Origin: Tubiluchus corallicola
Lineage: Eukaryota; Animalia; Priapulida
Reading direction: 5' to 3'
DNA: 64,000 nucleotides
Assembly: GCA_030141605.1 (NCBI GenBank)
Contig: JAQGDQ010000835.1
Span: 26,305 to 90,304 of the forward strand
Each line of letters starts with the position of its first letter. The stretch's first letter is position 1. Under the pieces are notes generated by a model that searched no databases, was not told the origin of the DNA, and worked only from the letters and a program-made list of their open reading frames with translations. The translations under genes and the position numbers were made by a program. This document shows positions 19,201 to 36,361 of this stretch, piece after piece.

Positions 19201-22042
19201 ACATATTGGTAAATCATTTCATCGAGTAAGATAGCGGCGCTGGAATGAAAAAGCCTCGGATGGGAGGTATAAGGCACGAGTGAAATAATAATTTTAGAAT
19301 TGTGGTAAGACTCGCGCTGGATACTTTTTCTAAAACTTGTTTAAACTTTTCAAGTTAAACAATTTTAGATGCCATGTATCTGTTTAATTTTTGAGTGTTT
19401 TATTAACTATTTTTCAGCTGTCCCAATACAACTCTGCCATTATCAGACCAAAATATAAAAACAGTTGGCAATTCGCTTTGTTACAGTATACATTTTGAAG
19501 GTGACAAAAGGATTTATTTTACATTAATTGCACTTAGGCTTTTGCTTTAAAAGTGCCATTTAAATTGAATATAGGTAATCAAATTAACTCGAGTTGTATA
19601 TTTGTAATCGTACTTGACTTAGAGAAAAATGTCTAACCGCACGCCCACTAGTATCCATTCAGCCATGAACCCCGCCCACTATGCAAAGGCTATGTATAAC
19701 TTCAATATTATTTATTGATGGGAAATTGAAATTTACACGGTAAGCTTATATTTTTATTTACCACTAAATTAAATGAGGATTCAAAGGAATAGTTAGCAAC
19801 TTTGCAAACATGTGAAAAACTTGTGCACTTTTCCTTTAACTAACCTGTAATGTTCGCCGCTTGTTGTCTTCAGTATGAATCCAAGATCGAAGCGTCAGTT
19901 CTTCAATAAAGATTTCTGCAGCTTTTGCAAAAAGAACTGGAGCTTCTGCACTGATCATTTTTACATCTTCATCCAACTTCATAATTTTCTTTATTCTGGC
20001 AAGTGGCAACTCTTGCATTTTAAAATCATTCTGAAAAGGCATGTAGTAAAACATACAGACAGAAGGGTAGTGCTATATTTTACAAATTTGCAGTAAAATG
20101 TACAGACACAGGCATTTTTAAAATTCACTTTCCGAATTATTAACACGAAGATTTCAATTTCAACACTGTGTACTTGAACAGGTAAAAAGAATTATTACCA
20201 CACAAACACAATTTCACATTTGCGCCACTAGTTTTTCACTGTTACATGCATTTCACCATTTGCTGGTTAGATGGGCAGTAGAGCCTGCATTTCAAAAACG
20301 CATTGCACAAAAAATAGGTGCTGTACCTCTCAGTTCAGATATGCCAATTTGTGACGAATTACACAAGTTCGACAGCTCATGCATAACACAGCGGTAAATT
20401 TAAAGCTTGAATTTTTATCTTAAAATTTGCCTAGTTCTAGTACAACACACTGAATCTCTTACAGTAGCACCGCACTTCAATTTTCACTTTTGCAAACACG
20501 CGCAACACGTCCGTGGAATATTTCTGCTGTTGAAAATTATGTTAGTTTGTGATGTCATCAATAGTTGAGCTCGCCCGCTGCTAATTAAGTTTTTAACCTT
20601 TTATTTAATTATCAGAAACACTTTTGCAATAATGTTGGTTTTAAAATGTATACTTTTTATCGGACTTGAAAATGGGGTTGTATATAAAAAATTATCCTAT
20701 CTTCCTTTAACATTTCTGTCAAATGAGACCTCAATTCATAATTACATATCTACGATATTTTTACATCACAATTATAATTATTTTGGTAAATAATCTAGTC
20801 AAAAAAGTATATCAGAATTATATTGTAAACTATAAATTTGAATATTTTGTAGAAAGGTCAATGTCAAGTAAGTCAAAGACTCCTGGGTTTACCATCTACA
20901 ATTTTGATGAAAACTTGGAAGAAATACAGCTCTACAGGCACAAGGGAAAACCACGTAGTTTCAGGGAAATTTTTGTTGCGGGTTCTGAACTATGACCCTC
21001 CAAATTTCCACCACCATTACACCAACTTGCATTTCATGTTCACGTGTAGATTCAGTATTTGTATGCGAACATCATTACACCAACTTGCATTTCATAGTTG
21101 GGCTCGCCCGCCATTAATTAAGATTTTAATCTATTGTTTAATTATTAGAAACGCTTTTGCAACATTAACTGTGCTAAAATATACATTTTTTATCGGACAC
21201 CAAAATGGGATAATATATGAAAAATCATCTTGTCTTTCTTTAAAGACATTTCATAACCTTGAAATGTAATTTTCCTAAGAAGTAAGATATGGGAGCAGCT
21301 ATAAGTAGCAAATGCTATTCATTAGCCAGACTACGTCTAATAAATGTACTGTGTGTAGATTACTGAGAAAACGAATCTGTTATTATTGACAATATTTACA
21401 GTCTGTATAAAATACACAGGATGGTGTTTATTGAAATCTGCATCAAATCGGATGTTTTGTATATCTTGTAGGCTCTGTTCAAATAACACGACGCATGATA
21501 AGGTAGTGAAGGTGTTATTATCGGAGCTATGACAGGCTCAAAACTTAACCATGTCAGGTCATGCGACAGATCCAAAGCTACTTCTGGATTTGTTATTTAA
21601 AGGCCTACATAACCCCAAAAAACAATGAAATTTTTTAACGCATTTTTATGATTAAACAAAGAATTCATAGTTATTATTAAACAAAAGAGACTTGTAAATT
21701 AAATATTCAATTCTGGGCTCTAGGAATTTACAGTTAAGAACAGATAAGGCAGAAAAACATGAGCAACTACAAAATTAAAGTTGTAAACAATTCTCTACAT
21801 ATTGAAAACATTGTAACAGACATTTAATTCACATGCCGCCGCATTTCCGGTGGAAAAAATTGTCAAATTTGCATTCAGTGACTTATATCTAGCATGTCCT
21901 ACTAGCATTTCTAGTAACTTACATTTCCAAAGCTTTGCATCTTGTCTGCCTGCTTTGTCCAAAAGTTCTGAAGCAGGGCCTGCGCTTCCGTGCCGCCAAT
22001 GCCCGGCAGATCAACCGTGAATGTAGGATTAGTCTGCGTCAT
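13140..22042 (-). CDS. NFYC: Nuclear transcription factor Y subunit gamma (NF-YC), spliced: join(21923..22042,19845..20030,17784..17882,16052..16201,15229..15390,13873..14118,13140..13244), 355 aa
   Basis: Histone-fold signature [80 protein letters not shown] followed by a Q-rich activation domain. All exons are bounded by GT/AG and join in frame. Confidence 0.96.
13412..13590. mobile_element. Short foldback/MITE with ~65-bp inverted arms in the last NF-YC intron
   Basis: AGCCACTAAACCAGCAGA...GGCAGAAATT versus AATTTCTGCC...TCTGCTGGTTTAGTGGCT, with a related fragment at ~18354. Confidence 0.8.
13873..14118 (-). CDS. NFYC: NF-YC coding exon 6 ([15 protein letters not shown]...SAGQ)
   Basis: Acceptor TTTTACAG, donor GTACGT. 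The QQIP|IQL..QLQ.IR motif is typical of the NF-YC C-terminus. Confidence 0.9.
14164..14685. mobile_element. MITE family D (~520-570 bp, TTAA-flanked), second copy at 16759-17332
   Basis: TIR TTAAAGGAAGACCAGACGATTG / CAATCGTCCGGTTTTCCTTTA, with two colinear copies in NF-YC introns. Confidence 0.82.
15229..15390 (-). CDS. NFYC: NF-YC coding exon 5 (Q/T-rich)
   Basis: Open frame [11 protein letters not shown]...[18 protein letters not shown], acceptor TTCTCTAG, donor GTAAGA. Confidence 0.88.
15595..16038. mobile_element. MITE family C (Tc1/mariner-pogo type). Other copies at 60728-61182 and partial 58637-58832
   Basis: TIR CAGTCAACCTCGG, TA flanks, internal TATAAGGGAC repeats. Confidence 0.85.
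16052..16201 (-). CDS. NFYC: NF-YC coding exon 4 ([12 protein letters not shown] plus Q18 tract)
   Basis: Conserved [10 protein letters not shown] motif, acceptor TTTAATAG, donor GTAAGT. Confidence 0.92.
17784..17882 (-). CDS. NFYC: NF-YC coding exon 3 ([33 protein letters not shown])
   Basis: Acceptor TTGTGCAG, donor GTAAGT, conserved DFLIDIVPR. Confidence 0.96.
18389..19025. mobile_element. MITE family B (~640 bp). Other copies at 22225-22846, 49898-50553, 50875-51271 (inverted, deleted) and 61857-62354 (deleted)
   Basis: ~37-bp imperfect TIR TGTGTGCTTGCA..CAAAATCGTCCATAAGTCGGCA and colinear interiors. Confidence 0.88.
19845..20030 (-). CDS. NFYC: NF-YC coding exon 2 (histone fold)
   Basis: Acceptor TTTCAG, donor GTTAGT, 186 nt. 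Confidence 0.97.
21923..22042 (-). CDS. NFYC: NF-YC coding exon 1 ([40 protein letters not shown])
   Basis: ATG at 22042, donor GTAAGT at 21922-21917, upstream acceptor TTTTGTGCAG ending at 22081. The LQNFW motif precedes the histone fold as in other NF-YC proteins. Confidence 0.88.
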
Positions 22043-35879: not shown

Positions 35880-36361
35880 GTAAAGGAAACCTACACATGA
35901 AAGCCAAGGAAAATGATACCGACAACACTAACCGTACGAGACAAACAAGTTAGTCATGATTCATGAAATTTTTAACTTGCTTGTAAAGACGAATTTTACT
36001 GTTGTATTTTACCGGGTAACGGTATATCAATATATATTTTATAGCATTACACGATGATTTCACTTAAAAAATCACGTTACATCAGAGCCTTGGTTAACTA
36101 CATCAACGTACGCATGTGTCTATTTTTTACTGTATTAACAACCACCTTAGCCGGCGCATTGTCCAGAAGTCAGACTTTCGAAGTTTTAACTTAAAATACA
36201 TAAGATTTTCCATCTTGCTAAATCTTAATGCGGGAAAATTAGCAAGAAATTTTAACAGATCCTACGAAAACCAACTGAAGTCAAAACAGTGTTTTTGTTG
36301 AACTGATTCCGCGCAAGAAAATTTAATTAAATATCTTTTGGTAATTTCGAAGGACGCCTTG
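35880..36361. promoter_or_regulatory. Putative bidirectional promoter with divergent non-coding first exons
   Basis: Minus-strand donors GTAAGT (35879-35874) and GTTAGT (35932-35927), plus-strand donor G|GTGAGC at 36361/36362, locally more CpG, E2F-like GCGGGAAA at 36230. Confidence 0.55.

What the first reader, a model, noticed from the sequence alone, without database searches (positions are those of the whole stretch)
22042..35933. One leader exon, three unrelated proteins? Two intronless membrane-protein ORFs between NF-YC and its putative promoter
Seen: three minus-strand coding units each have a clean 3' splice acceptor 38-73 nt upstream of their ATG (32987 for ATG 32913, 30449 for ATG 30407, 22081 for the NF-YC ATG 22042). 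So each needs an upstream non-coding exon. The clearest promoter-associated minus-strand donors I found are at 35879 and 35932, back-to-back with the DSCC1 leader. Inference: one leader is alternatively spliced to three mutually exclusive acceptors. This would nest two 2-TM genes in the NF-YC 5' UTR intron and make NF-YC dose compete with them through splicing and polyadenylation. An SL trans-spliced operon would give the same pattern.
Basis: partly seen in the sequence, partly recalled or inferred. Interest (0 to 1): 0.8.

Follow-up and report, generated by a model that had tools for sequence, protein, structure and literature searches.

The report
Two small genes upstream of NF-YC
Two reading frames for small predicted membrane proteins, one of them conserved in a related animal, lie between the NF-YC gene and a likely promoter 14 kb away, so they may sit inside NF-YC's first intron and borrow its leader exon, an arrangement already known from human and fly genes and not confirmed here by any RNA data.

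Summary
All named coordinates are correct. ORF2 (215 aa) is a real gene: a relative is 65% identical, and 7 of 7 listed substitutions in another run hit third codon positions. ORF1 (120 aa) is plausible but has no homologue. The only broad CpG-rich block between 22 and 38 kb is at 35.8-36.5 kb, upstream of DSCC1, which favours NF-YC starting there. But a stronger donor lies at 28545, and weaker ones lie upstream of ORF2, so separate first exons fit nearly as well. No junction could be tested: no RNA holder was listed. An acceptor just before the NF-YC start codon also occurs in other eukaryotes. Nesting with leader sharing about 0.45, independent genes about 0.40, full three-way sharing about 0.25. 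If true it is a known kind: CPNE1/RBM12, ChAT/VAChT, 130 fly genes. This scan noted a similar layout on other DNA (e1-7500016). Low interest.

The parts
35800..36550 (.). Likely promoter block shared by DSCC1 (+) and a minus-strand transcript; E2F-like 8-mer at 36230-36237 (motif name recalled)
   Evidence: CpG o/e 1.28 over 800 nt, reached by 11 of 632 windows; maximum 0.95 in 22082-35700; X1 depth 0.6-9 at 36002-36583, repeats on both sides; motif 3 times in the window
35880..36040 (-). Inferred non-coding leader exon ending at donor 35879 or 35932; 5' end unknown
   Evidence: donor scores 8.0 and 8.8; no transcript data
35305..35354 (-). Candidate 50-nt second non-coding exon, but inside high-copy repeat DNA
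   Evidence: acceptor 10.6, donor 8.5; X1 depth above 800
32914..32987 (-). Acceptor and 73-nt 5' UTR of ORF1
   Evidence: score 6.7
32551..32913 (-). ORF1, 120 aa, hydrophilic N-terminus, Cys cluster, predicted helical hairpin; no homologue found
32429..32434 (-). AATAAA 117 nt after the ORF1 stop
31031..31569 (-). Moderate donors (31569, 31047, 31031) that could end an own first exon of ORF2
   Evidence: scores 7.1, 6.3, 5.8
30408..30449 (-). Acceptor and 41-nt 5' UTR of ORF2
   Evidence: score 3.8
29760..30407 (-). ORF2, 215 aa, two N-terminal hydrophobic segments and a tail with LPSY, PPEY, PPSY motifs; conserved gene
29072..29564 (.). 56-nt minisatellite, 8.9 copies, probably in the ORF2 3' UTR
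   Evidence: no AATAAA/ATTAAA between the stop and 28743
28524..28760 (-). Donor cluster (28545 strongest): own first exon of NF-YC, or a 12-nt micro-exon 28557-28546; lies between ORF2's first two poly(A)-like hexamers (28743, 28416/28404)
   Evidence: donor 9.8, acceptor 9.4; 6 CpG in 215 nt, o/e 1.11
22849..23060 (.).
   Evidence: GC 0.43, 8 CpG, o/e 0.83; motif places
22218..22848 (.). Dispersed 630-nt repeat with short inverted ends (MITE-like); holds the only donor (22507) scoring 4.5 or more between 22893 and the NF-YC acceptors
   Evidence: four other copies at about 80%; ends and donor alignment; donor list
22043..22170 (-). NF-YC acceptor 22081 and a second, stronger acceptor at 22170
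   Evidence: scores 7.9 and 10.4
13140..22042 (-). NF-YC coding exons 22042-21923, 20030-19845, 17882-17784, 16201-16052, 15390-15229, 14118-13873, 13244-13140
37825..38101 (+). DSCC1 first coding exon (acceptor 37824, ATG 37926); later exons run to at least 58212
   Evidence: Pfam Dcc1 on later exons, none on this one

Best explanation
NF-YC is likely transcribed from the inferred promoter block at 35.8-36.5 kb that it would share head-to-head with DSCC1, so that ORF2 (a conserved gene) and ORF1 (an unconfirmed gene) would be same-strand genes nested in a 13.8-kb first intron, with at least ORF1 likely borrowing the same leader exon. Mechanism, all inferred: the leader donor (35879 or 35932) splices to the first acceptor that is used; cleavage at the nested gene's poly(A) site (32434 for ORF1; 28743 or 28404 for ORF2) commits the RNA to that gene, while read-through and skipping give NF-YC mRNA, as proposed for CPNE1/RBM12. 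ORF2's protein is predicted to be a two-helix membrane protein whose PPxY motifs would recruit WW-domain ubiquitin ligases (motif role recalled, untested). Shown: the frames, splice signals, ORF2 conservation, the CpG and repeat map. Not shown: any start site or junction.
For: Only broad CpG-rich block in 22-38 kb: nine highest 300-nt windows all start at 35850-36300; 800-nt o/e 1.28 against at most 0.95 in 22082-35700. Near single-copy at 36002-36583 with repeats at 34838-35710 and 37166-37747. 23100-29000 is CpG-poor (o/e 0.55) and contains repeat copies. The 22893 alternative has no donor of 4.5 or more in unique DNA before the acceptor. No donor of 8 or more between 35304 and 28545. NF-YC loci of other eukaryotes also carry an acceptor before the ATG (3 distinct loci of 4 picked; the fourth, L027, dropped because my ATG was out of frame), so a distant first exon is expected.
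Against: No junction or start-site data. Donor 28545 outscores the leader donors and has a small CpG-retaining patch. True donors scored from -3.1 to 11.5 in leave-one-out, and sites of 4.5 or more occur at 4.3 per kb, so own first exons cannot be excluded. CpG-rich 800-nt windows also occur at 51.6, 53.0-53.6 and 59.6 kb, not at known starts, and there is no calibrating promoter. Promoter sharing is uncommon: 130 genes in the fly (PMC4528330). No long complementary pair flanks the nested frames (best 13-15 nt). Other NF-YC introns are about 1-2 kb.
Confidence: 0.45

Rival explanations
1. Three ordinary tandem genes. The 35.9-kb leader serves only the nearest gene(s); NF-YC has its own first exon, best candidate ending at 28546 (6.5-kb first intron), and ORF2 its own near 31570.
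For: Donor 28545 scores 9.8 with three weaker donors within 21 nt; 31569 scores 7.1; CpG o/e 1.11 and 1.06 just upstream of them in CpG-poor surroundings; the 11-mer at 28655 recurs only at 35960; separate promoters are the usual case (PMC4528330 counts 130 sharing genes).
Against: The patches are small (6 and 4 CpG). The 28545 site follows a strong acceptor by 12 nt, as an internal micro-exon would, lies within or right behind ORF2's likely 3' UTR, and the 155 nt before it hold 6 ATGs.
Confidence: 0.4
2. Spliced-leader trans-splicing: the acceptors take a leader from elsewhere, with or without an operon.
For: All four genes, DSCC1 included, have an acceptor 38-101 nt before the ATG. In metagenome contigs 9 of 80 NF-YC loci share one 5' motif and 3 of 80 another within the first 60 nt, so NF-YC mRNAs look trans-spliced in some other organisms.
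Against: Spacing is 2.0 kb and 6.3-6.7 kb against medians of about 1-500 nt in described operons (PMC7986045 passages). Cis donors exist upstream of every acceptor. Earlier unchecked notes call the genome priapulid-like; my searches found no paper on spliced leaders in priapulids, which is no evidence of absence.
Confidence: 0.08
3. ORF1 is not a gene, so at most two genes are involved; or ORF2 transcripts read on and splice from 28545 to NF-YC as a dicistronic RNA.
For: No homologue, no Pfam family at cut-off, no fold match, codon score not distinct from background; 21 of 300 simulated 14-kb strands hold an ATG frame of 120 aa or more.
Against: 0 of 300 simulations gave a frame with a hydrophilic N-terminus plus a strong hydrophobic segment (criteria set after seeing ORF1); GC 0.41 in 0.28-0.33 flanks; acceptor before and AATAAA after.
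Confidence: 0.07

Closest known systems
Human CPNE1/RBM12 and the 24 promoter-sharing pairs of Yang et al. 2008 (PMC2568002; abstract, sections 5 and 12 read)
   Same: Unrelated coding sequences behind shared 5' non-coding exons; choice proposed to rest on splicing and the shorter gene's poly(A) site. The table notes a three-gene case (HOXC4, HOXC5, HOXC6 share exon 1).
   Different: Shown there by cDNA, EST and RT-PCR and conserved to zebrafish; here only predicted. Here two nested frames and an opposite-strand partner.
Cholinergic gene locus, VAChT inside ChAT intron 1 (PMC13163293; passages read)
   Same: Whole membrane-protein ORF inside the first intron, common promoter upstream of non-coding exon R, termination at the nested poly(A) site.
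   Different: Partners act in one pathway; a cited title also reports VAChT-specific promoters inside the intron, which parallels my rival. No functional link between NF-YC and ORF1/ORF2 is evident.
FlyBase genes sharing a promoter and 5' non-coding exons (PMC4528330; passages read, File S2 not seen)
   Same: 130 fly genes share promoter and 5' non-coding exons; same-strand nesting is treated as too common to flag.
   Different: Annotated from transcript data; mostly pairs.
Small membrane proteins TMEM252, TMEM51/TMEM139, TMEM174, TMEM61 (ESM Atlas neighbours of ORF2)
   Same: Feature scores 0.79-0.92, similar length; best two clusters are unnamed eukaryotic proteins.
   Different: No Pfam hit at cut-off; named families are leads only (TMEM252 on 10% of members).

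Membership tests
Promoter- and 5'-exon-sharing genes (CPNE1/RBM12, ChAT/VAChT type) | Same strand, unrelated coding sequences, shorter gene wholly upstream of the longer gene's coding exons | tested here: met
   ORF1 and ORF2 show no significant similarity
Promoter- and 5'-exon-sharing genes (CPNE1/RBM12, ChAT/VAChT type) | Each coding unit has its own acceptor and poly(A) signal | tested here: met
   acceptors 6.7, 3.8, 7.9; AATAAA 32434; ORF2's first hexamers 1.0-1.4 kb after the stop; signals predicted only
Promoter- and 5'-exon-sharing genes (CPNE1/RBM12, ChAT/VAChT type) | Transcripts of the different genes begin with the same exon | not testable with these tools
   no RNA holder listed; X2 covers none of the NF-YC exon bins at 19632-20060 and 21777-22205
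Promoter- and 5'-exon-sharing genes (CPNE1/RBM12, ChAT/VAChT type) | No separate promoter for the downstream gene | tested here: inconclusive
   CpG map favours one block but donor 28545 remains
Promoter- and 5'-exon-sharing genes (CPNE1/RBM12, ChAT/VAChT type) | Arrangement conserved in relatives | tested here: inconclusive
   0 of 80 metagenome NF-YC loci hit DSCC1, ORF1 or ORF2, but only 8 of 80 have 5 kb or more upstream and none is a close relative
Spliced-leader operon | Short intercistronic distances | tested here: not met
   2.0 kb and 6.3-6.7 kb against PMC7986045 medians
Spliced-leader operon | Non-genomic leader on mRNA 5' ends; SL RNA genes in the genome | not testable with these tools
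   no genome held, no RNA; Rfam finds nothing in the window
NF-YC | Histone-fold domain like human NF-YC and Gln-rich C-terminus | tested here: met
TMEM51/61/174/252 families (ORF2) | Pfam profile match above cut-off | tested here: not met

The most novel reading that the evidence does not exclude
One leader at a bidirectional DSCC1 promoter is spliced to three mutually exclusive acceptors, so a single start region yields four unrelated proteins, and the level of the CCAAT-factor subunit NF-YC is set by skipping two nested membrane-protein genes, perhaps through a 12-nt stepping-stone exon at 28557-28546.
Probability: 0.25. Interest if true: 0.4.

Novelty: new member of a known kind. Interest (0 to 1): 0.2.

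Why it matters
If true it is one more case of promoter and leader sharing, in an invertebrate and at a core transcription-factor gene, where tissue-specific splicing or polyadenylation could tune NF-YC. The kind is described in human and fly, three-gene sharing included, so it would extend rather than change what is known. The firmest new item is an unannotated, conserved small membrane-protein gene (ORF2).

Tried and rejected
No genome held. No RNA holder listed; X1 behaves as low-depth DNA, X2 is repeat-rich and leaves NF-YC and DSCC1 exon bins uncovered, so neither tests junctions; absence of cover is not used as evidence. X2's contig on ORF2 does not show transcription, since its RNA label is a guess. 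I did not lay X1 on 16200-29050, and 29051-29599 was laid with neither run, so the repeat map there is incomplete. Word-index searches found nothing for ORF2, ORF1 or the DSCC1 first exon, so I could not place the organism myself; 'priapulid-like' comes from unchecked earlier notes. P0002 is a repetitive chance-like hit, dropped. Metagenome scan with the ORF2 alignment: 0 of 83 candidates confirmed. ORF1 and ORF2 as paralogues: rejected (probability 1.1%). In-frame fusion of ORF1 through its internal donor 32607 to ORF2 or NF-YC: stops within a few codons (11 acceptors tried). Codon-usage score uninformative even for ORF2. ORF1 fold search: 0 matches at E 0.001. Exon-like acceptor-donor pairs in 22-36 kb (5 clusters) are not clearly above the window-wide rate. 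The E2F-like site at 35633 lies in repeat DNA and was discounted. The paper on human NF-YC dual promoters (PMC2797189) is not held; only its title was seen in a reference list. The listing for NFYC, DSCC1 and bidirectional promoter showed no paper on such a pair; the search for the C. elegans unc-17/cha-1 study found nothing usable.
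Full report
Observation. The window is AT-rich eukaryotic DNA. NF-YC is confirmed by its histone fold and has seven coding exons from 22042 to 13140. DSCC1 is on the plus strand, ATG 37926, with Pfam Dcc1 on 3 of 4 exons tested. I trained matrices on 14 donors and 13 acceptors of these two genes (small sets). The acceptors score 6.7, 3.8 and 7.9; random ATGs have sites of 6, 4 and 7 or more upstream in 15%, 31% and 10% of 2409 cases. 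Jointly they exceed chance, but the ORF2 site is mediocre, and a second NF-YC acceptor at 22170 scores 10.4.

The two frames. ORF2 is a real gene. A full HMMER search found P0001 (E 1.6e-15), whose cluster holds P0003, 213 aa, from a 2382-nt contig, 65% identical over its length with all three PPxY-type motifs kept. A 151-nt contig of run X2 lies on 30015-30139 with 12 differences; the 7 that were listed are all at third codon positions, 6 synonymous. Its nearest Atlas clusters are unnamed eukaryotic membrane proteins at 0.91-0.92, with TMEM252, TMEM51, TMEM174 and TMEM61 as weaker leads. Its layout is protein-like, and 0 of 300 simulated strands gave a like frame, by criteria chosen afterwards. 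ORF1 and ORF2 are not detectably related.

Where is the promoter? The nine highest 300-nt CpG windows in 22.1-37.9 kb start at 35850-36300. The 800-nt block has o/e 1.28, reached by 11 of 632 windows, against at most 0.95 in 22082-35700. Run X1 shows low depth at 36002-36583, depth 72 in the bin holding the two donors, and high-copy repeats at 34838-35710 and 37166-37747; the donors may lie near a repeat edge. An E2F-like 8-mer (name recalled) sits at 36230-36237, one of three in the window. I take this as the DSCC1 promoter and probably a bidirectional one; this is inference. Against over-reading it: CpG-rich windows also occur at 51.6, 53.0-53.6 and 59.6 kb.

Alternatives for NF-YC. A better one was missed: donor 28545 scores 9.8, above both leader donors, with a small CpG-retaining patch upstream and an 11-mer shared only with 35960. 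But it follows a strong acceptor by 12 nt and lies between ORF2's first poly(A)-like hexamers, so it could equally be an internal micro-exon, which would need an upstream donor. ORF2 has moderate donors upstream at 31569, 31047 and 31031. Sequence alone cannot decide.

Outside evidence. No genome is held. No RNA holder was listed, and the two runs gave no usable junction. Of 80 NF-YC loci from metagenomes (the best of 230 confirmed), none hit DSCC1, ORF1 or ORF2, but only 8 have 5 kb or more upstream. Three distinct genomic loci (L012, L019, L064/L066) have acceptors scoring 8.4-10.4 within 13-100 nt of the NF-YC ATG; I picked five loci by eye and dropped L027 because my ATG was out of frame. 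So a non-coding first exon or leader is ordinary for NF-YC. Nine of 80 loci share one 5' motif and three another, as spliced leaders would; these are other organisms.

Mechanism and odds. Best reading, 0.45: NF-YC starts at the 36-kb block, ORF1 and ORF2 are nested in a 13.8-kb first intron, at least ORF1 borrows the leader, and poly(A) choice versus skipping decides the product. Full three-way sharing is part of this, about 0.25. Independent tandem genes 0.40; trans-splicing 0.08, since spacings of 2.0 and 6.3-6.7 kb are far above described operon medians (PMC7986045, passages); ORF1 spurious or dicistronic read-through 0.07. The first two are close to a tie and the numbers are judgement. My reading before the CpG and repeat maps favoured independent genes at 0.6.

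Comparison. PMC2568002 (abstract and sections 5 and 12) lists 24 human pairs sharing promoter and 5' exons, notes HOXC5 as a third sharer with HOXC4 and HOXC6, and proposes the same poly(A)-versus-splicing choice. PMC13163293 (passages) describes VAChT inside ChAT intron 1 with a common promoter. PMC4528330 (passages; its File S2 not seen) counts 130 fly genes sharing promoter and 5' non-coding exons. The defining feature, a shared first exon on transcripts, was not testable, so membership is proposed, not shown. The listing showed no paper on an NFYC-DSCC1 pair; that is one search. An earlier unchecked note (e1-7500016) describes a like layout in another genome; it is not support.

Verdict. 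Interest 0.2.

Noticed in passing
window 42384-44294 (+), inside a DSCC1 intron: Long reverse-transcriptase frame (Pfam RVT_1, E 3e-11) bracketed on both sides by about 490 nt of a 10-nt simple repeat (42422-42904, 44553-45045), suggesting a repeat-targeting retroelement.
   Followed up: partly
window 35960 and 28655 (-): The same 11-mer occurs only at these two places in 64 kb, each shortly upstream of a strong donor; chance not excluded.
   Followed up: partly
window 13388-13616: A 230-nt near-palindrome (85% self-complementary) in the last NF-YC intron.
   Followed up: no
window 62730-62972 (-): Exon resembling a quiver/Ly-6-type protein (Pfam QVR, E 7e-4, below cut-off).
   Followed up: partly
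L003, L005, L006, L013, L016, L021, L030, L032, L041; and L002, L007, L009, first 60 nt: NF-YC contigs from metagenome collections begin with one of two shared leaders, as spliced-leader mRNAs would.
   Followed up: partly
window 16065-16114 (-): A CAA/CAG run encodes a long glutamine tract in NF-YC exon 4.
   Followed up: no
window 25300-25936 and 26736-27389: Direct duplicate of about 650 nt at 83% identity between ORF2 and NF-YC.
   Followed up: no
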